DNA of 64,000 nucleotides from an uncultured Muribaculaceae bacterium (lineage in GTDB: Bacteria; Bacillota_I; Bacilli_A; RF39; UBA660): contig CAZGWM010000001.1 of the NCBI GenBank assembly GCA_964529195.1, positions 19,294-83,293 of the forward strand, read 5' to 3'. Shown in pieces: positions 23,260-50,077 of the stretch. Position numbers and translations under genes: made by a program. Below the pieces are notes generated by a model, which did not search any database, was not told the DNA's origin, and worked only from the letters and a program-made list of their open reading frames with translations. The stretch's first letter is position 1, and each line of letters begins with the position of its first letter.

Positions 23260-24633
23260 TTATTTTTTTTCACTTGTTTTTTTATTTTCTGGAGTTTTTT
23301 CTTTTGGTTCTTCCTTTTTTATTTTTAAATCTTCTATTTTCTCTTTTGGTTTATCTTTTTTTACTTCTTCTTTTCTTGGGCCTTTTTTTATTTTTTTTAG
23401 GTTTTTTGCTTGAAGAATACTTATAATAGTTATAAGCACTAGTAGCCCGCTTACTCCTGCTCCGATAATCATCATAATGTCTAATTTATTTAAGTTATAT
23501 AAATAATCTTCTTTATTAAATACTTGAAGAGTTTTATTTACTTTATCATAACTATAAAAGTTTTCTTCATTATTATTTGTATTGATTCCATAAATTATGT
23601 AGAATTTACTGTCATCTTTTATTTTTAAGATATTCAATTCTTCATTGTTAATATTTACTTTATAAGTTTTCATCCCTTTTAAAGTTTGATTATTATCAGG
23701 TACATATATATTAAGGGATTGTGAAGTAATATATATGAATTTATTTACTACTTTACCATTTTCAAATATATAATATGATCCATTTCCTTTTGAGTTTGTT
23801 GCATATATTATAGTTAATTTTAGTTTTGAATTATATAGTCCTTTTATTTCTTCTGAGTTTATTACTACTTCAACTTCATTAAAATTACTTGGAGTTTTTT
23901 CAGGTAATTTTCTTGCCACAAAAATATCTTCATCTTTATATTTTATTTTTATAGGATCTTTTTCTGGAACTGTTATTTTCAGTAAATAAGTTTTTAAAGC
24001 ACCATTTTCTGCTTTAACCGATACTTCAACTTCATTTTCTCCTTCAATTAGATCTATTAATCCAGTTCCAGAGACTGTTGCCTTATTATGATTTACTCTA
24101 GCAGATATATTTACTGAAGTTATTCCTGGATTAGTGATGAATATATATTCTAATTTATTTTTATCAAATTCTAGTTCATACCCTTCAACCTCAAGTGAAG
24201 ATAAACTATTATCTGATGAATAAACTTTATTTACTGGTTTTGATATAGTAACAGTTGTTCCAGATGATGAAGGATTTAAATGTTGAACAGTTTTAAAGTC
24301 TGCTATTGCGGCATTATTTATTGAAATGCTGGCCACACCTTCTGCTATTGCTCTAAATGTATATGAGTATGTTTTTACTTTGTATGAGCCATCTCCAGAA
24401 TCTGCTACTCCTGTTGCTCCACTAACTAAAGTTAATTTACTCGAGTCGTATGTTAAATTATATTGCCATGATCCTAATGTATCAGTACTACTTACTCTTA
24501 CTGTTACATTAAATGTATTATTTAAATTAACATATGACTGGCTACTTGAAGCAGTTATACTTCCTGTAGCAGCATATATTTTCAGCGGAAACAGCAATAA
24601 AAATGCAATTATTAATAATATTTTATTTTTCAT
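23260..24633 (-). CDS. membrane-anchored surface protein: signal peptide, cohesin-like domain, cadherin-like beta-sandwich domain, C-terminal TM helix and Lys/Glu-rich cytoplasmic tail
   Basis: N-terminal region ...SYVNLNNTFNVTVRVSSTDTLGSWQYNLTYDSSKLTLVSG...SYKVKTYSYTFRAIAEGVASISINNAAIADF... fits the cohesin fold pattern. Residues ~140-225 fit the cadherin-like (PF12733) pattern. TM helix IMMIIGAGVSGLLVLITIISIL then a KKIKKGPRKEEVKKDKPKEK... tail. Confidence 0.55.
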   Translation of the reverse strand: MKNKILLIIAFLLLFPLKIYAATGSITASSSQSYVNLNNTFNVTVRVSSTDTLGSWQYNLTYDSSKLTLVSGATGVADSGDGSYKVKTYSYTFRAIAEGVASISINNAAIADFKTVQHLNPSSSGTTVTISKPVNKVYSSDNSLSSLEVEGYELEFDKNKLEYIFITNPGITSVNISARVNHNKATVSGTGLIDLIEGENEVEVSVKAENGALKTYLLKITVPEKDPIKIKYKDEDIFVARKLPEKTPSNFNEVEVVINSEEIKGLYNSKLKLTIIYATNSKGNGSYYIFENGKVVNKFIYITSQSLNIYVPDNNQTLKGMKTYKVNINNEELNILKIKDDSKFYIIYGINTNNNEENFYSYDKVNKTLQVFNKEDYLYNLNKLDIMMIIGAGVSGLLVLITIISILQAKNLKKIKKGPRKEEVKKDKPKEKIEDLKIKKEEPKEKTPENKKTSEKK

Positions 24634-24642
24634 TTTATTCTC

Positions 24643-26708: not shown

Positions 26709-27005
26709 TTATAATTTTTCGATTACAGCAATGTTTTTTTCTAAACATCTAACTAAATCATCAGGATCATATTTAGCAAATACTTCACTAAACTTATCAG
26801 GATTTGTTAAAAACAAATGTGCGTGATTTAGTAATGCTTCTTTATGATTTTTGATTCTTGTTTTTTTAAGAGTATCATAATTAACTGCTACTACTTTTGG
26901 AAACAAAGTTAATTTCTCTTTTACTTCTTCAGAAAGTTTTGTTTCTAGTTGATTTAATTCTTCTTTAGTAAATCCAAGATCTAGTAAATATAACATATTA
27001 AACAC
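26709..27005 (-). CDS. hypothetical protein (98 aa), translationally coupled to the upstream coiled-coil protein gene
   Basis: ATG 27005 overlaps the upstream stop (26998); no family recognised by eye. Confidence 0.5.
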   Translation of the reverse strand: MFNMLYLLDLGFTKEELNQLETKLSEEVKEKLTLFPKVVAVNYDTLKKTRIKNHKEALLNHAHLFLTNPDKFSEVFAKYDPDDLVRCLEKNIAVIEKL

Positions 27006-28392
27006 TCCTTACATTTTCAGCTTGTTTTGCTTTACTTAGTAAATTAGTTATATCTGCTCCATTTAAATCTGTTCCAAGTGCAAGAGCAGCTTCTTCTAAA
27101 TGTTTAAGTTTAATTGTTGGAAGTACATCAAGTACATATCCAATATTACTTGGTTTTTGATTTGAATCTAATAATTTATTTACTATACCACTAAATTCTT
27201 CATAAGATATATCTGTTAGTACATTACTTGAGGTATATATACTGTTTAAATCTATTTTATTTTGATCTAATAGATCAAATACTTTTTTAAAGTTTTCATA
27301 GTTATAATTATTTCTTAATTTATCTTGAATATCTCTTTCAAATCTATTTACATCAAGTGCATATGACCTAAAGAATTCATCAATTGAGACTCTTTCAACT
27401 GTTTTAACTCCATCTTCTTTTATATCAGCATTTAATTCTTCTTCAGAAATAAATTCAGCTCCAAATATATCTGGAATGTTAAAATCATCAAATGAATTAG
27501 AGATACTTTCAACCATTGGTTCCTCTAACTTTTCTTCTTTTATAGGTTCCTCTAACTTTTCTTCTTTTATAGGTTCTTCTAATTTTTCTTCTATGATAGG
27601 GTTATTTAAATTGAGTTTATCTAATGTTTCAAGTGTTGGTAAGTCTTCTTCAAATACTTCTGGTAATGTATCTAACTTTTCTTCAACGCTTTCTTCTAAT
27701 TTGTTTAATTCTCTTGCTGTTTTTCTTAAACTTTCTAAAAAGTCATTTGTTTCTACTTCTTTTTTTTCTTCAATTGGTTTTGTTTCAACTACTTTTAAAT
27801 CTTTATCTAGTGATGCAATTTCATCAAAAACTTCTGTTTTAGGAGTATTTAATTTCTTTTTATTTTTTGCTTCTTTTCTTATAGCTAAATTACTGTGGTT
27901 TAATCTAGCATAATCAGAAAGTCTATTTAATTCTCTAGCGTAATACTCATGTGCATTTTTTAAATTTTCTAATCTTTCTTCTTTAGTAGCTTTATCTTTT
28001 TTTAAGTTTAAAAGTAAATCTTTTATACTTCTTGCTTTTTCAGTTAATTCAGCTATTGAATTATTATGATTTGATATTTTATCTTCTTTTTCTTCTATTT
28101 TAGAGTTTATTTCTTTATCTCCAGCTTCTACTACTGCAGTTAAATTCTTTGAGCCAAATTTATCTTGTAATAATCTTAAGTCTGCTCTTAGAGAATTTAT
28201 TTCTTCTTCTAACTCGGCTATTTGTTCTTTAGATAAATCTACTTCTACTTTATATTCTCTTGCTTCTTCTACTTTTTCGTTTATTTTTAAATTTACTTTT
28301 TCAAGTGATTGTTCTAATTCTTCTTTTTCTTTTAATAATTCCTTTAATATATTAGCTAATTTTTTATTAATATCTTCTATAATGGCTTTCAT
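26998..28392 (-). CDS. coiled-coil protein with an internal acidic tandem repeat (EEKLEEPIK x3) and a globular C-terminal domain
   Basis: 464 aa; N-terminal heptad-rich Glu/Lys/Leu coiled coil; 30-bp DNA tandem repeat at 27518-27607. Confidence 0.6.
   Translation of the reverse strand: MKAIIEDINKKLANILKELLKEKEELEQSLEKVNLKINEKVEEAREYKVEVDLSKEQIAELEEEINSLRADLRLLQDKFGSKNLTAVVEAGDKEINSKIEEKEDKISNHNNSIAELTEKARSIKDLLLNLKKDKATKEERLENLKNAHEYYARELNRLSDYARLNHSNLAIRKEAKNKKKLNTPKTEVFDEIASLDKDLKVVETKPIEEKKEVETNDFLESLRKTARELNKLEESVEEKLDTLPEVFEEDLPTLETLDKLNLNNPIIEEKLEEPIKEEKLEEPIKEEKLEEPMVESISNSFDDFNIPDIFGAEFISEEELNADIKEDGVKTVERVSIDEFFRSYALDVNRFERDIQDKLRNNYNYENFKKVFDLLDQNKIDLNSIYTSSNVLTDISYEEFSGIVNKLLDSNQKPSNIGYVLDVLPTIKLKHLEEAALALGTDLNGADITNLLSKAKQAENVRSV
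27518..27607. repeat. 30-bp tandem repeat x3 (third copy degenerate) inside the coiled-coil protein gene
   Basis: GGTTCCTCTAACTTTTCTTCTTTTATA occurs at 27518 and 27548, with a degenerate copy at 27578; it encodes the EKLEEPIKE repeats on the minus strand. Confidence 0.8.
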
Positions 28393-28474
28393 GTGGTAGC
28401 CTCCTTTTATTCTAATTAAAATTATAACAAAATATAATTATTATGTAAATAGTATTAACTATTAAAAAATACCA

Positions 28475-38469: not shown

Positions 38470-38731
38470 ATTTCCTCCTAAAAAAAATCCATAAATTAAA
38501 GGACGAGCAAAACCCGTGGTACCACCTTAATTCATGAATTTCATGCGCTTAATTCTCGTAACGTGAGTTATTCGTTTTTTCCTTATCAGAAAAACACATC
38601 AGAAGTGATTTTTAATTATCTTATATGCTTATCTTTCACCACCTGTAAGCTCTCTTTAATACAGTTATAATTAACGTCTTCATCTCTTGCTTTGTAAAAC
38701 TAATTATATTATTTCTTTACTTTTTTGTCAA
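38470..38731 (-). promoter_or_regulatory. ileS promoter and T-box riboswitch leader
   Basis: On the minus strand: TTGACA (38731-38726), 17-nt spacer, TATAAT (38708-38703). Leader contains the T-box consensus AATTAAGGTGGTACCACGGG (RC of 38513-38532), a U8 tract, then SD AGGAGG before ATG 38469. Candidate specifier region is ...GAAAGAUAAGC... (possible AUA Ile codon). Confidence 0.75.
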
Positions 38732-46963: not shown

Positions 46964-47332
46964 ATGGATTGTGTTTTTTGCAAAATAAATAATAATGAAA
47001 TTCCTTCTAAAACTATTTATGAAGATAACGTTCTAAGAGTTATTATGGATAACAACCCTGTTTCTAATGGTCATGTTTTAATTTTAACTAAGGATCATTT
47101 TAAAGATTTTAGTGAAGTTGATTCTCAAACTATTAGTCATATTCATGAAATATCTAAAAAAATCAAATCTTATTTAGAAGATAGTTTAAAACCAGAAGGA
47201 ATAACTATTTTAAATAATTATGGAATTAATCAAGTTGTTAAACACTATCATTTACATTTAATTCCAGTTTATAATCATAACAATTTAAATAATATAGATG
47301 ATATTTATGCAAAAATAAAACGTGTTATATAA
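46964..47332 (+). CDS. HIT family (histidine triad) nucleotide hydrolase
   Basis: Zn-ribbon-like CVFC N-terminus and HIT motif HYHLHLIP; 122 aa. Confidence 0.85.
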   Translation: MDCVFCKINNNEIPSKTIYEDNVLRVIMDNNPVSNGHVLILTKDHFKDFSEVDSQTISHIHEISKKIKSYLEDSLKPEGITILNNYGINQVVKHYHLHLIPVYNHNNLNNIDDIYAKIKRVI

Positions 47333-47346
47333 CACGTTATTTTAAT
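47312..47346. terminator. bidirectional terminator shared by convergent hit and rplT
   Basis: Perfect 20-nt palindrome AACGTGTTAT|ATAACACGTT (47319-47338) overlaps both stop codons; A/T tracts on either side. Confidence 0.65.
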
Positions 47347-47903
47347 GCTACGATTAATTCAGCTTTTTTTAATGTTGAATAACCAGTAAGTTCTCTTTCT
47401 TTTGCAAGTTCTCTTAGTTCTGCAACTGTTAAGCTTGCTAAGTCTTTATCTTTTTTTACTTCAGCTTTTGCTGGAGCTTTTTTTACTTCTTCTTTTACTT
47501 CAGTTTTTACTGCAGCTTTTTTTACTTCAGTTTTTGCTGGGATTTTTCCATTTAAAGCATCTTTTGCTACATTTACAAGTTCAGTAAAATATTTAGGATT
47601 GTCTATTGCTATTTCACTTAATACTTTACGATTAAGATCTACATTTGCAATTGATAGTCCATTTATGAATCTTGAATATGATATGTCATTTTGATGACAT
47701 GCTGCATTTATTCTTGTAATCCATAATTTTCTAAAGTTTCTTTTATTAGCTTTACGATCACGATAAGCATATTCTCCACTATGAAATAATTGTTCTTGTG
47801 CTGTTTTATATAGTCTGTGTTTACTTCCAAAGTAACCTTTTGCTTGTTTTAATACTTTTCTTCTTCTGTTTTTTGAAACAGATCCGCCTTTAACTCTTGT
47901 CAT
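47337..47903 (-). CDS. rplT: 50S ribosomal protein L20 with a C-terminal extension (Lys-rich repeat linker plus Rho_N/SAP-like helix-hairpin domain)
   Basis: Residues 1-~120 are canonical bL20 ([38 protein letters not shown]...). Residues ~120-188 are [28 protein letters not shown] then [31 protein letters not shown], which matches the Rho N-terminal domain signature. Confidence 0.85.
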
Positions 47904-47914
47904 AATTCATTCAC

Positions 47915-48103
47915 CTAGATAACAGTTTTTAGTCTGTCAGCGTCTCCTTTCGCTAATACTCCCTTATTTCTTCTTTGTCTTACTTGTTTTCCTGTGTCTT
48001 TTGCAGTGTTGTGGTTTCCACCAGATTTTTTAAATGTTAGTGTTCCATTTTTTTTCTTTTTAAAAATTTTGCTACTTGCTTTATGTGTTTTTTGCTTTGG
48101 CAT
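47915..48103 (-). CDS. rpmI: 50S ribosomal protein L35
   Basis: MPKQKTHKASSKIFKKKKNGTLTFKKSGGNH... bL35; SD AGGAGG. Confidence 0.95.
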   Translation of the reverse strand: MPKQKTHKASSKIFKKKKNGTLTFKKSGGNHNTAKDTGKQVRQRRNKGVLAKGDADRLKTVI

Positions 48104-48116
48104 TTTCTATTCCTCC

Positions 48117-48644
48117 TTATTTAATTGGTGCTAAAATCATTGCCATATCTCTACCTGTTAATTTTGGGTTTGATTCTATCGTTGAGCATTCCTTTAATTC
48201 TTCTGAAAATTTTATAAGTACATCTCTACCTAATTCTGTATGAGCCATTTGTCTACCTTTAAATTTAATTGTAGCCTTTATTTTATGACCTTTTTTTAGG
48301 TATGATTCAGCGTTTCTAACTCTAGTGTTGAAATCTCCAATATCAATATTTACTGATAATTGATATTCTTTAATTTCTCTTCTACTAGCTCTTTGGTTTT
48401 TTAATGCTTCTTTTTGTTTTTTCTTTCTTTCATAATTATATTTATTATAATCCATGATTTTCCCTACTGGGTGTTGTGAATTTTCACTCATTAAAACTAA
48501 ATCTAGACCAGCATAATTTGCTAGCGTTAGAGCATCATCGATATCTTTCATTCCCATTTGTTCACCATTAGGACCGATAACCATTAGCTGTTTTACTCTT
48601 ATCTTTTCATTGATTGGTAGATCGTTACTTTTGATATTTGCTAT
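48117..48644 (-). CDS. infC: translation initiation factor IF-3, probable ATA (Ile) start codon
   Basis: IF-3 N- and C-domains (...INEKIRVKQLMVIGPNGEQMG...). A strong SD GGAGGTG sits 6 nt before ATA at 48644. The in-frame ATGs further upstream (48659, 48680) have no SD, and the nearer one is itself part of the SD. Confidence 0.75.
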   Translation of the reverse strand: MANIKSNDLPINEKIRVKQLMVIGPNGEQMGMKDIDDALTLANYAGLDLVLMSENSQHPVGKIMDYNKYNYERKKKQKEALKNQRASRREIKEYQLSVNIDIGDFNTRVRNAESYLKKGHKIKATIKFKGRQMAHTELGRDVLIKFSEELKECSTIESNPKLTGRDMAMILAPIK

Positions 48645-48817
48645 TGTAAGCACCTCCATATAATTAAAAAGTGGATACATAATGTATCCACATAAAAACT
48701 ATTATATTATTAATATACTTAGCTTTTTACCTATTCACTTATATGAATCAGGTGGAATGTGGATACACTCGCTTTCTTTAAAATTACTAGTTAAGTATAC
48801 CATTTTATTTTAAAATG
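48645..48817 (-). promoter_or_regulatory. infC-rpmI-rplT leader with an intrinsic-terminator-like hairpin (L20-type attenuator candidate)
   Basis: Palindrome GTGGATACAT-A-ATGTATCCAC (48669-48689) is followed on the minus strand by TTTTT immediately upstream of the infC SD, resembling the L20-controlled attenuator of the Bacillus infC operon. Confidence 0.45.
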
Positions 48818-50077
48818 TCAAGTATTTGATTTAACTTCGGTATTTGACGGAAGATTTATTTCTTCTTTTATCTGATTGTTTTTAACAAATATTTTAGAAG
48901 TTTGTTTGATATTATTAAACATTCCTTCTTTTGAAGCACTTAGATTTGCCCAGTTATCTATTCTTAAAGTATCAAAAGTAGCTCCATCAAACATATTATC
49001 CATATTTTCTACTTTAGATATATTCCAAGATTTAATATCTATTGTTTTAATATTTGCTTCTTTAAACGCTTTATTTAAACTAATTACGCCTGATGTATTT
49101 AATTTATTTAATCCAGTTACTTTTACTTCTTCAATATTTTTACCTATTTCATAAAACATTGAATCCATATTTGTAGTAAATTTTGTATTTAAATTTGTTA
49201 AATCTAATTCTTTTAAGTTTGTTAATCCTTTAAATAGTAGAGAAGAATCTTCTCCAGTAAACACTCCACCATTTTGACCAATTGTTACCTTATACATATT
49301 ATCTGATTCAGATGCAGTATACCAAGCAACTATTTCAGAAGTCTCAGATACTTTCCAGTTACCTAAAACATCTTCTGGAATTATATTTGTATTTACAAAA
49401 GTTATTTCTTCTATTTCACTTTTTAGAAGCTGACTTCCTAAGAAATATTCGTTTTCATTTACTTTGTTTATTGTTTCAGGTTTATACATAGTTACTGCAA
49501 CTATTGATAATTTTACCTCTAAGTTTGTATTTGATATTGTTTCATCTACCCATATATCTTCACTATTACCATTTAACCACATTCTATAATTATATAAATG
49601 TGATTCTTTTTTATTGAAATGGTTTTTCATTATTACATAATTATTAACAGATCCATCAATTATATGAACTGAAGATTCTTTTTCGAGTAAATCTAGTGAT
49701 GCTATTAATGAATCTCTAGGACCAGTTAAAGAAGTTTTTATATATTCTTCTTTTCTTAGTGAGCTTGTATTCATAACTGACATAACTATCTTATAATCAA
49801 CAAAAGTATCACAGTTATTAGTTACTTTAAACATATACGGTGTGGTTTTCATTCCGCTTTCATCCGTTAGAGGAAAAGCATTATTTAGTTTAATACTCTC
49901 ATTAACACCATTTATAGTTACTTCCATACAATCAAGAGTTGATATAATGCTTTGACCTTTTTGAATTTCCTCTGATTTTACAAATGAATAAGTAACTGCT
50001 GTTATAGTTACAATCATCATTACAATACTTATTATTCCTATTATTAAATATTTTTTAGTAATTTTCACTAAGTTCAC
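48818..50077 (-). CDS. DUF285 / BspA-like surface protein (26-residue-repeat family, PF03382), N-terminally membrane-anchored
   Basis: N-terminal TM helix; C-terminal repeats of the ...L.nLdtsnvtnMs.MF... type (DLTNLNTKFTTNMDSMFYE; DIKSWNISKVENMDNMFDGA; DNWANLSASKEGMFNN). Confidence 0.6.
   Translation of the reverse strand: MNLVKITKKYLIIGIISIVMMIVTITAVTYSFVKSEEIQKGQSIISTLDCMEVTINGVNESIKLNNAFPLTDESGMKTTPYMFKVTNNCDTFVDYKIVMSVMNTSSLRKEEYIKTSLTGPRDSLIASLDLLEKESSVHIIDGSVNNYVIMKNHFNKKESHLYNYRMWLNGNSEDIWVDETISNTNLEVKLSIVAVTMYKPETINKVNENEYFLGSQLLKSEIEEITFVNTNIIPEDVLGNWKVSETSEIVAWYTASESDNMYKVTIGQNGGVFTGEDSSLLFKGLTNLKELDLTNLNTKFTTNMDSMFYEIGKNIEEVKVTGLNKLNTSGVISLNKAFKEANIKTIDIKSWNISKVENMDNMFDGATFDTLRIDNWANLSASKEGMFNNIKQTSKIFVKNNQIKEEINLPSNTEVKSNT

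What the first reader, a model, noticed from the sequence alone, without database searches (positions are those of the whole stretch)
47337..47903. bL20 fused to a Lys-rich linker and a Rho_N/SAP-like domain
rplT encodes 188 aa instead of ~118. After the complete bL20 core there is an imperfect [28 protein letters not shown] repeat (the DNA is also imperfectly repeated at ~47440-47540). The final 32 aa ([34 protein letters not shown]) closely match the helix-hairpin nucleic-acid-binding motif of the Rho N-terminal domain. The frame is continuous and the extension ends at the shared hit/rplT terminator palindrome, so this is not a frameshift fusion. In Bacillus, L20 is also the autoregulator of the infC operon, so an added RNA-binding module could matter for ribosome assembly or regulation.
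Basis: seen in the sequence. Interest (0 to 1): 0.6.

Follow-up and report, generated by a model that had tools for sequence, protein, structure and literature searches.

The report
Ribosomal protein L20 with tethered DNA/RNA-binding tail
This gut bacterium's essential ribosomal protein bL20 really does carry a floppy lysine-rich tether ending in a small helix-loop-helix domain of a nucleic-acid-binding type; the fusion is conserved across a whole lineage and is already catalogued, but nobody has studied what it does.

Summary
The ORF at 47337..47903 (-) encodes 188 aa:
- a complete bL20 core (residues 1-118);
- a 35-aa K/E/V/T/A-rich linker encoded by imperfect tandem DNA repeats;
- a 35-aa C-terminal module that passes Pfam's Rho_N threshold. 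AlphaFold folds it as helix, extended loop, helix, and it superposes on the Rho N-terminal bundle and the Tho1 SAP domain.

It is not a frameshift or a chimeric join. All 120 listed protein clusters and 77 of 80 species-level loci (uncultured low-GC gut Bacilli/'Tenericutes' MAGs) have the same continuous ORF in the same infC-rpmI-rplT operon.

The architecture is already catalogued as NCBIfam PRK14537, 'L20/unknown domain fusion protein'. This protein scores just under its cut-off. I found no paper on it.

New context:
- The same linker-plus-module cassette ends uS2 in 17 related loci, often with 80-92% nucleotide identity to the bL20 tail.
- It also ends bL21 in cultured marine Flavobacteriaceae.
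- It ends several phage proteins, including a major head protein, members of a family named 'Arc-like repressor' and proteins of unknown function.

Best reading: a flexible, low-specificity nucleic-acid-binding hook on the ribosome's solvent face. The function is inferred, not shown. Interest is moderate.

The parts
47337..47903 (-). rplT coding sequence (188 aa plus TAA stop): fused bL20
47550..47903 (-). bL20 core, residues 1-118
   Evidence: Pfam Ribosomal_L20 covers 3-109 and TIGR01032 covers 1-114. PDB bL20 chains align to 1-118. AlphaFold pLDDT is about 90 in the globular part.
47445..47549 (-). Linker, residues 119-153 ([35 protein letters not shown]), net charge +6, predicted disordered
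   Evidence: pLDDT is below 50 for residues 126-152. Across 118 homologues the linker is 22-58 aa long, with 33% K, 21% E, 13% V, 11% T and 9% A.
47340..47444 (-). C-terminal helix, extended loop, helix module (Rho_N/SAP class), residues 154-188
   Evidence: Pfam Rho_N 39 bits. AlphaFold pLDDT 82-87 in the full-length model and 85 alone. Foldseek matches to the Rho N-terminal domain, Tho1 SAP, FAN1 SAP and T4 endonuclease VII. Invariant residues D154, L163, A167, K168, K179, K180 and L183.
47449..47547 (.). Imperfect tandem DNA repeats (periods 12, 27 and 39) that encode the linker
47319..47338 (.). Bidirectional terminator-like palindrome shared by the convergent hit and rplT genes
47915..48103 (-). 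rpmI (bL35, 62 aa), immediately upstream in the operon
   Evidence: Assigned by reading the translation; it was not scanned against a family library.
48117..48644 (-). infC (IF3), probably starting at ATA 48644, 6 nt after GGAGGTG (inferred)
   Evidence: Assigned by reading the translation.
48657..48780 (-). L20-leader-like RNA element upstream of infC. It scores below Rfam's gathering score but matches the full length of the model.
   Evidence: RF00558 scores 50.6 bits (gathering score 58.7), E 1.5e-8, model positions 1-127. An element at the equivalent position is found in 4 of 8 relatives.
48671..48691 (-). Terminator hairpin inside the leader (attenuator), followed by TTTTT
48794..48821 (-). 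Promoter-like site TTGACA-16-TATACT with an extended -10 TG, 11 of 12 matches

Best explanation
This is the organism's housekeeping bL20, encoded in the canonical infC-rpmI-rplT operon behind an L20-type leader.

**Shown.**
- The core is a normal bL20.
- A roughly 35-residue, net-positive linker follows it. AlphaFold predicts it to be disordered. It is encoded by tandem DNA repeats and varies from 22 to 58 aa among relatives.
- The protein ends in a 35-residue module with the helix, extended loop, helix fold of the Rho_N/SAP class.
- The module is conserved under purifying selection.
- The same linker-plus-module cassette ends uS2 in sister lineages, bL21 in Flavobacteriaceae and several phage proteins: a major head protein, members of a family named 'Arc-like repressor' and proteins of unknown function.

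**Inferred.**
- The core assembles into the 50S subunit as usual.
- Its C-terminus emerges on the solvent face, so every large subunit carries a flexible hook with a reach of a few nanometres.
- The hook binds nucleic-acid duplex or backbone with low sequence specificity, through the invariant K168, K179 and K180 and the helix N-termini.
- The bound nucleic acid could be nearby rRNA surface in a fuzzy way, or mRNA, or AT-rich chromosomal DNA.
- The hook is therefore a general add-on to the ribosome surface, not a bL20-specific regulator.
For: **Real and conserved.**
- All 120 listed clusters carry PF00453 plus PF07498.
- 77 of 80 species-level loci have one continuous ORF with the module.
- Only one bL20 gene is present in the window.

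**Operon and leader intact.**

**Fold.**
- Rho_N scores 39 bits.
- AlphaFold gives helix 160-169, a loop, then helix 180-187 at pLDDT 82-87, with the linker below 50.
- Foldseek gives TM 0.77-0.83 and rmsd 1.0-1.1 A to the Rho N-terminal bundle and Tho1 SAP. FAN1 SAP in DNA complexes and the T4 endonuclease VII C-terminal domain also match.

**Selection.**
- Mean pairwise identity is 62% for the module and 76% for the core.
- dN/dS is about 0.40 for the module and 0.24 for the core.
- K168, K179 and K180 are invariant in 62 sequences.

**The linker behaves as a tether.** Its composition is conserved while its length and sequence are not, and the DNA is repeated.

**Not bL20-specific.**
- uS2 plus Rho_N occurs in 17 loci.
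- bL21 plus Rho_N is the normal bL21 in Leeuwenhoekiella, Mesonia, Salegentibacter, Christiangramia and other genera.
- A profile built only from bL20 modules scores bL21 modules at a median of 71.7 bits and uS2 modules at 67.4 bits, against 71.9 bits for bL20 modules themselves.

**Link to nucleic acid.**
- Modules on phage proteins score 49-72 bits against the bL20-module profile. The carriers include members of phrog_390 ('Arc-like repressor') and a phrog_371 major head protein. The module region also matches phrog_3281 ('endonuclease VII').
- Three related loci replace the module with a strongly basic K/T/A tail of net charge +8 to +11. This argues that binding a polyanion is the selected property.
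- The Rho N-terminal helix bundle is described as positively charged and as assisting RNA binding (PMC11347177).
Against: - No binding experiment or structure exists. No solved ribosome contains such a tail.
- The module in this protein has net charge 0; only the linker is basic.
- Foldseek E-values are not significant because the domain is so small.
- SAP and HeH Pfam scores fall below their thresholds.
- The ligand cannot be told apart with these tools: own rRNA, mRNA, DNA or a protein.
- In trees this diverged, the dN/dS estimates suffer from saturation of synonymous sites in a 26% GC genome.
Confidence: 0.55

Rival explanations
1. Fixed structural extension. The module docks at one defined rRNA site next to bL20 and stabilises the 50S subunit, as most lineage-specific ribosomal-protein extensions do.
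For: Ribosomal-protein extensions usually bind rRNA (established knowledge). A tethered domain sees a very high local rRNA concentration. bL20 in gut Bacilli and bL21 in Flavobacteriaceae are neighbours on the 50S: bL21 binds 23S rRNA in the presence of bL20 (established knowledge). The two lineages therefore place the module in roughly the same region.
Against: The linker varies from 22 to 58 aa, is low in complexity and is predicted disordered. That is not expected for a fixed dock. The same cassette is on uS2, on the other subunit, and on phage proteins that have no ribosome.
Confidence: 0.2
2. Protein-recruitment adaptor. The module binds a protein partner, such as RNA polymerase, a helicase, a hibernation factor or a neighbouring ribosome, rather than nucleic acid.
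For: Some SAP-type domains mediate protein contacts; for example the human SLX4 SAP domain binds MUS81 (PMC13171448, abstract). The module's net charge is 0. Module sequences are as similar between phyla as within the clade, which would fit a universally conserved partner.
Against: No partner is indicated by gene neighbourhood. Three relatives swap the module for a plain basic tail. Phage carriers include members of families named 'Arc-like repressor' and a major head protein, and the module matches the 'endonuclease VII' family.
Confidence: 0.12
3. Passenger cassette. This would be a mobile C-terminal tail that spreads by recombination or gene conversion and through phages. It is tolerated at permissive solvent-exposed C-termini and contributes little.
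For: Within single genomes the rplT and rpsB tails share 80-92% nucleotide identity over 100-190 nt. Near-identical modules occur in phages and in two phyla. Three loci have lost the module.
Against: The module is retained in 77 of 80 species. Its dN/dS is about 0.40, and the lysines and the hydrophobic core are invariant. It sits on an essential, highly expressed protein, where useless mass should be costly.
Confidence: 0.08
4. bL20-specific regulatory add-on. The extra module strengthens or alters bL20 binding to the infC-operon leader.
For: An L20-leader-like element with an attenuator terminator is present here and in relatives.
Against: The same cassette sits on uS2 and bL21, which do not bind that leader. 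The canonical bL20 globular domain is intact and is what recognises the operator in studied species (established knowledge).
Confidence: 0.04
5. Artefact. The long ORF would come from a frameshift, a read-through error or a chimeric assembly joining rplT to an unrelated ORF.
For: None beyond the unusual length. The repeat-rich linker could in principle cause mis-assembly, and some database fragments with odd N-termini fused to this tail look like such errors.
Against: The identical architecture appears in 77 independent species-level assemblies, including a circular long-read MAG chromosome (L062), and in all 120 listed clusters. The frame is continuous and ends at a terminator.
Confidence: 0.01

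Closest known systems
NCBIfam NF011109 / PRK14537, '50S ribosomal protein L20/unknown domain fusion protein'
   Same: The architecture is collinear. The bL20 core and linker align to profile positions 7-147, and the C-terminal module aligns to positions 189-224 of 232. Relatives P0038 (196.9 bits) and P0002 (284 bits) pass the cut-off.
   Different: This protein scores 177.5 bits, under the 187-bit cut-off, probably because its linker is shorter. NCBI calls the added part an 'unknown domain', whereas Pfam identifies it as Rho_N.
N-terminal helix bundle of transcription termination factor Rho (Pfam Rho_N, PF07498)
   Same: The sequence family matches at 39 bits. The fold matches at TM 0.81-0.83 and rmsd 1.0 A to 1a8v and 2a8v. 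The motif L-x-x-L-x-x-x-A-x-x-x-x-I-x-G-x-S-x-M-[KR]-K-x-[ED]-L-I is shared.
   Different: There is no Rho OB-fold RNA-binding domain and no ATPase. The module is at a C-terminus, not an N-terminus. The last 9 profile positions are missing. Direct similarity to real Rho proteins is weak: E 0.077 against PDB Rho, and E. coli Rho does not hit the module profile at all.
SAP / HeH (LEM-like) DNA-binding domains (Tho1, Ku70, FAN1) and the C-terminal domain of T4 endonuclease VII
   Same: They share the two-helix, extended-loop fold: Tho1 SAP at 39% identity and TM 0.77, with FAN1 SAP in DNA complexes and endonuclease VII also among the matches. There are weak Pfam SAP and HeH hits and a ku70 C-terminus hit.
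   Different: The module scores below the Pfam gathering scores for SAP and HeH. Those are eukaryotic or phage DNA-metabolism proteins, not ribosomal proteins.
bL21 with a Rho_N tail in marine Flavobacteriaceae (annotated simply as '50S ribosomal protein L21')
   Same: The cassette is the same: a K/E/A-rich linker plus a near-identical module, for example DDLSKHTVAELKEMAKEQGLEGYSSMKKAELIEALSK. These modules score a median of 71.7 bits against the bL20-module profile. The carrier is also a solvent-side 50S protein, one that depends on bL20.
   Different: The carrier protein and the phylum differ, and the organisms are cultured. In that phylum bL20 is of normal length (7jil_Q, 114 aa). In a gut Bacilli relative bL21 is of normal length (100 aa).
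NCBIfam 'sunset domain' variants of L20 (NF051450) and S2 (NF051451)
   Same: This is another lineage-specific C-terminal add-on that decorates the same two ribosomal proteins, bL20 and uS2. The core and linker regions align.
   Different: The sunset portion of those profiles (about positions 170-219 for L20 and 278-382 for S2) is not matched. Scores are 135 against a cut-off of 375, and 292 against 710. It is a different terminal domain.

Membership tests
bL20 (Pfam PF00453 / TIGR01032 rplT_bact) | Full-length match above the curated cut-off | tested here: met
   PF00453 scores 149.2 bits (cut-off 30.8) over profile positions 1-107. TIGR01032 scores 155.2 bits (cut-off 65.65) over positions 1-114.
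bL20 (Pfam PF00453 / TIGR01032 rplT_bact) | Canonical infC-rpmI-rplT operon with an L20 leader, as in Bacillota | tested here: met
   Gene order. RF00558 scores 50.6 bits, E 1.5e-8, over the full model but below the gathering score of 58.7. Promoter and attenuator terminator. An element at the same position is found in 4 of 8 relatives.
bL20 (Pfam PF00453 / TIGR01032 rplT_bact) | Incorporated into 50S subunits | not testable with these tools
   Inferred from it being the only rplT in the window and the operon copy in 77 of 80 relatives.
Rho_N domain (PF07498) | Sequence match above the gathering score | tested here: met
   39.0 bits against 24.9, residues 154-187, profile positions 1-34 of 43.
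Rho_N domain (PF07498) | Helix, extended loop, helix fold that superposes on the Rho N-terminal bundle | tested here: met
   AlphaFold pLDDT 85. TM 0.81-0.83 and rmsd 1.0-1.1 A to 1a8v, 2a8v and 6wa8, although the Foldseek E-value is about 2 because the query has only 38 residues.
Transcription termination factor Rho | Rho_N followed by an OB-fold RNA-binding domain and a RecA-type ATPase | tested here: not met
   The protein ends after the module. TIGR00767 rho scores 15 bits against a cut-off of 509. It is not a Rho.
SAP domain (PF02037) / HeH-LEM (PF12949) | Sequence match above the gathering score | tested here: not met
   SAP scores 19.2-22.9 bits against 23.9. HeH scores 16.1-17.8 bits against 28.9. 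The fold-level resemblance is real.
NCBIfam PRK14537 (L20/unknown domain fusion protein) | Whole-protein score above the curated cut-off | tested here: not met
   177.5 bits against 187. Close relatives pass.
NCBIfam PRK14537 (L20/unknown domain fusion protein) | Collinear architecture of bL20 core, low-complexity linker and conserved C-terminal module | tested here: met
   The core and linker align to profile positions 7-147, and the module to 189-224 of 232.
NCBIfam NF051450 (L20, sunset domain variant) | Match to the C-terminal sunset domain, with a score above the cut-off | tested here: not met
   135.4 bits against 375. Only profile positions 1-153 of 219 align.
Nucleic-acid-binding HeH/SAP-class modules (functional class) | Direct binding of DNA or RNA | not testable with these tools
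   Support is indirect: invariant lysines, phage carriers from families named for DNA-handling roles, and replacement of the module by a basic tail in 3 loci.

The most novel reading that the evidence does not exclude
The linker-plus-module cassette would be a dedicated, portable ribosome accessory. It would move between ribosomal-protein genes by gene conversion, as between the rplT and rpsB tails, and between phyla, possibly through phages. It would physically tie ribosomes to chromosomal DNA or nascent transcripts. That would give small, AT-rich genomes, which may lack Rho, a way to keep translation close to transcription without the usual coupling factors.
Probability: 0.15. Interest if true: 0.65.

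Novelty: new member of a known kind. Interest (0 to 1): 0.35.

Why it matters
If the tail binds nucleic acid in cells, ribosomes in a large, uncultured group of gut bacteria carry a built-in nucleic-acid hook on their solvent face. Ribosomes of cultured marine Flavobacteriaceae would carry one too. Such a hook could affect any of three things: where ribosomes sit relative to the nucleoid, how they behave at low magnesium or in AT-rich transcriptomes, or how they are stored.

It is also a clean example of one small domain being recruited repeatedly to different ribosomal proteins (bL20, uS2, bL21). Current annotation hides this: the proteins are named plain 'L20' or 'L21', or 'unknown domain fusion'.

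The cultured Flavobacteriaceae carriers make the question experimentally accessible. On present evidence this is a moderately interesting, catalogued but uncharacterised feature, not a new kind of system.

Tried and rejected
**Searches that gave nothing useful.**
- An exact-sequence look-up of the window protein's contig found nothing on record.
- Cluster-member names gave no organism names.
- The NCBI taxonomy of the one named relative, Candidatus Ventrenecus avicola, is 'Bacteria incertae sedis'. Its source paper holds no usable text on it. The GTDB order (RF39 or RFN20 type) therefore remains my guess.
- Literature searches found nothing on such fusions. The terms tried were 'sunset domain', Rho_N with L20, 'unknown domain fusion protein', PRK14537, bL20 with C-terminal extension and SAP, and PF07498. 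The Rho-diversity paper uses PF07498 but does not mention ribosomal proteins.
- Rfam at gathering threshold shows no L20 leader here or in 17 relatives. It appears only at the E-value threshold.
- The AFDB fold library was unavailable.

**Ideas rejected.**
- Frameshift or chimera: rejected by conservation.
- Identity with NCBI's 'sunset domain': the sunset part of those profiles is unmatched.
- A strictly ribosome-specific module subfamily: weakened, because phage proteins carry modules scoring 49-72 bits (median 56.8) on the bL20-module profile, and small non-ribosomal proteins carry it too.
- Uniform concerted evolution of the bL20 and uS2 tails: only partly true. A genome's own bL20 module is the nearest neighbour of its uS2 module in just 4 of 17 genomes.

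**Caveat on the representative search.** Its top hits are multi-copy Rho_N/SAP repeat proteins whose scores are sums over copies, so they say little about this protein.

Full report
**1. The observation**

The minus-strand ORF at 47337..47903 runs from ATG to TAA and encodes 188 aa. AGGTGA lies 7 nt upstream of the ATG.

Pfam finds Ribosomal_L20 at residues 3-109 (E 5e-44). It finds Rho_N at residues 154-187 with 39.0 bits, above the gathering score of 24.9. SAP and HeH score below their thresholds. TIGR01032 covers residues 1-114.

The best solved bL20 chains are 116-119 aa and align to residues 1-118. No solved chain aligns beyond residue 126. About 70 residues are therefore extra.

Residues 119-153 form a K/E/V/T/A-rich linker with net charge +6. 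The DNA encoding it is imperfectly tandem-repeated at 47449-47547, with periods of 12, 27 and 39.

The ORF ends at a palindrome, 47319..47338, that looks like a terminator on both strands. It is shared with the convergent hit gene.

**2. It is not an artefact**

A protein search returned 120 listed clusters. Every one carries both PF00453 and PF07498, and lengths are mostly 175-214 aa.

A scan of one genome per species returned 80 loci. Nearly all are uncultured gut 'Bacilli', 'Tenericutes' or 'Erysipelotrichaceae' MAGs from rabbit, goat, chicken, mouse and human. They include a 1.19-Mb contig and a circular 1.26-Mb long-read chromosome.

I built a profile of the C-terminal module and searched stop-to-stop ORFs. 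In 77 of the 80 loci one continuous ORF holds both the bL20 core and the module. No relative has the extension as a separate ORF.

The window is 25.8% GC and has only one rplT.

**3. Context**

The gene is the last in an infC-rpmI-rplT operon. Upstream of infC, in order, lie:
- a strong promoter-like site, 48821..48794;
- an L20-leader-like RNA element, 48780..48657 (RF00558, 50.6 bits, E 1.5e-8, full model length, below the gathering score);
- an attenuator-like terminator inside that element, 48691..48671.

An element at the equivalent position is detected in 4 of 8 relatives. This suggests that bL20-type feedback on the operon has been kept.

**4. Anatomy of the extension**

AlphaFold with a 62-sequence alignment gives a confident core. 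Residues 126-152 score pLDDT below 50. The C-terminal module scores pLDDT 82-87, with helix 160-169, an extended loop and helix 180-187. Modelled alone, the module scores pLDDT 85.

Foldseek against the PDB puts these matches at the top:
- the Rho N-terminal domain (1a8v, 2a8v, 6wa8; TM 0.81-0.83, rmsd 1.0-1.1 A);
- the Tho1 SAP domain (39% identity, TM 0.77);
- FAN1 SAP in DNA complexes;
- the C-terminal domain of T4 endonuclease VII.

The E-values are about 2, which is not significant for a 38-residue query.

Across 118 homologues the linker is 22-58 aa long. Its composition is conserved (33% K, 21% E, 13% V, 11% T, 9% A) but its sequence is not.

The module keeps D154, L163, A167, K168, K179, K180 and L183 invariant. 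Mean pairwise identity is 62% for the module and 76% for the core. A rough Nei-Gojobori estimate gives dN/dS of about 0.40 for the module and 0.24 for the core. The module is therefore under purifying selection, more relaxed than on the core.

**5. What is already known**

NCBIfam holds PRK14537, '50S ribosomal protein L20/unknown domain fusion protein'. Our core and linker align to profile positions 7-147, and the module aligns to positions 189-224 of 232. Relatives with longer linkers pass the 187-bit cut-off. This protein scores 177.5 bits.

The fusion is therefore catalogued, with the added domain left unnamed. I found no paper that discusses it. No solved ribosome contains it.

**6. The cassette is not specific to bL20**

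*uS2.* In 17 of the loci, rpsB lies directly downstream of rplT. There uS2 (312-364 aa) ends in the same kind of linker plus the same module. Pfam confirms Ribosomal_S2 plus Rho_N.

Within a genome, the two tails share 80-92% nucleotide identity over 100-190 nt in 11 of the 17 loci, sometimes reaching into the linker. In 4 genomes the genome's own bL20 module is the nearest relative of the uS2 module. This points to occasional copying or gene conversion between the two genes.

*bL21.* A fragment from the representative search led to a third carrier: bL21 plus linker plus module is the normal 156-172-aa bL21 of cultured marine Flavobacteriaceae. The genera include Leeuwenhoekiella, Mesonia, Salegentibacter, Christiangramia, Zunongwangia and Psychroflexus.

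A profile built only from gut-Bacilli bL20 modules gives these median scores:

| Module source | Median score (bits) |
|---|---|
| gut-Bacilli bL20 modules | 71.9 |
| Flavobacteriaceae bL21 modules | 71.7 |
| uS2 modules | 67.4 |
| single copies in generic multi-copy Rho_N proteins | 30 |
| E. coli Rho | no hit |

In a gut-Bacilli relative bL21 has the normal 100 aa. In Flavobacterium bL20 has the normal 114 aa. The two lineages thus decorate neighbouring 50S proteins; bL21 binding depends on bL20 (established knowledge).

*Phage and other proteins.* The module is also common at the C-terminus of phage proteins:
- a 96-aa protein of phrog_390, 'Arc-like repressor';
- a phrog_371 major head protein;
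- proteins of unknown function (phrog_2724, phrog_2250).

These phage modules score 49-72 bits. The module region also matches phrog_3281, 'endonuclease VII'. Small non-ribosomal bacterial proteins carry the module too.

*Loss of the module.* Three related loci (L037, L058, L080) keep a bL20 tail but replace the module with a strongly basic K/T/A-rich tail of net charge +8 to +11.

*A parallel case.* NCBIfam also has 'sunset domain' variants of exactly L20 and S2. Our proteins do not match that terminal domain.

**7. Mechanism**

Shown:
- a canonical bL20 core;
- a variable, repeat-encoded linker that AlphaFold predicts to be disordered;
- a conserved module with an HeH (helix, extended loop, helix) fold of the Rho_N/SAP class;
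- a cassette shared with other solvent-side ribosomal proteins and with phage proteins from families named for DNA-handling roles.

Inferred:
- The core assembles normally.
- The tail projects from the solvent face.
- The module, helped by the basic linker, binds nucleic acid with low specificity.

Which nucleic acid is bound cannot be decided here. It could be the ribosome's own rRNA surface, mRNA or AT-rich DNA.

The variable tether and the presence of the cassette on both subunits argue against a single fixed docking site. They also argue against a bL20-specific regulatory role.

Other readings remain possible but are less well supported: a fixed rRNA clamp, a protein adaptor or a tolerated mobile passenger.

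The Rho N-terminal bundle is described as positively charged and as assisting RNA loading. Rho is absent from many small AT-rich genomes (PMC11347177). Whether this organism has Rho could not be tested.

**8. Verdict**

The observation and the architectural interpretation are correct. The feature is a lineage-wide, database-catalogued but functionally uncharacterised bL20 variant. I file it as a new member of a known kind.

That reframes it as a portable nucleic-acid-binding tail. Interest is moderate.

Noticed in passing
L022 4660-5577; also L031, L039, L044, L045, L047, L052, L055, L056, L061, L064, L067, L069, L070, L071, L077, L078 (gene directly downstream of rplT): Ribosomal protein uS2 (312-364 aa) ends in a K/E-rich linker plus the same module as bL20 (Pfam Ribosomal_S2 plus Rho_N). 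In 11 of the 17 loci the rplT and rpsB tails share 80-92% nucleotide identity over 100-190 nt, which suggests copying or gene conversion between the two genes.
   Followed up: partly
Proteins P0277-P0395 (not in the window): In cultured marine Flavobacteriaceae (Leeuwenhoekiella, Mesonia, Salegentibacter, Christiangramia, Zunongwangia, Psychroflexus and others) the normal bL21 is 156-172 aa and ends in a near-identical linker-plus-module cassette. It is annotated only as '50S ribosomal protein L21'. These modules score as high on the bL20-module profile as bL20 modules themselves.
   Followed up: partly
L037 4001-4528, L058 4001-4528, L080 3492-4013: These three related genomes have a bL20 of about 175 aa. 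Its tail is a strongly basic K/T/A-rich low-complexity sequence (for example KKTATKKTTAAKSTEKKTATKTTAKKTTAKKEEK) with no HeH module.
   Followed up: partly
NCBIfam models NF051450 and NF051451 (hits on window 47340-47903 and on L022 uS2): NCBI curates 'sunset domain' variants of exactly the same two ribosomal proteins, L20 and S2. This is a different C-terminal add-on that our proteins do not match. I found no paper that describes the sunset domain.
   Followed up: partly
L081-L160 (IMG/VR phage contigs), e.g. L081 2830-3120, L154 2059-3123: Many phage proteins end in a closely related module (49-72 bits on the bL20-module profile). They include a 96-aa protein of phrog_390 ('Arc-like repressor') on contigs of up to about 44 kb, a phrog_371 major head protein, and small proteins of unknown function.
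   Followed up: partly
window 48627-48659 (-): infC probably starts at a non-AUG codon, ATA at 48644, 6 nt after GGAGGTG. The ATG listed by the ORF finder at 48680 lies inside the leader terminator hairpin.
   Followed up: partly
window 38496-38695 (-): A T-box leader (RF00230, 106.6 bits). It is the only Rfam match in the window above a gathering score.
   Followed up: no
P0002 (293 aa, ENA contig of 124,702 bp): One homologue has about 93 extra N-terminal residues that give a second partial Ribosomal_L20 match (two stretches), followed by the normal core, linker and module. This may be a tandem partial duplication or a gene-calling or assembly error.
   Followed up: no
P0236 (191 aa), P0273 (193 aa), P0268 (87 aa), P0251 (80 aa): These small non-ribosomal proteins, which by module similarity may come from related bacteria, also end in a K/E linker plus the module. 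One looks as if it has an N-terminal transmembrane segment (by eye) and another an amphipathic N-terminus (by eye). Several other short database entries with this tail look like mis-assemblies across the repeat-rich linker.
   Followed up: no
window 23263-24642 (-) and 27001-28437 (-): Two other ORFs in the window contain K/E-rich low-complexity stretches: KKIKKGPRKEEVKKDKPKEKIEDLKIKKEE near a C-terminus, and a repeated EEKLEEPIKE stretch. Neither carries the HeH module.
   Followed up: no
L008 2035-3014: In this relative the L21 leader (RF00559) and rplU-ysxB-rpmA lie directly upstream of infC-rpmI-rplT. Here bL21 has the normal 100 aa while bL20 is fused.
   Followed up: yes
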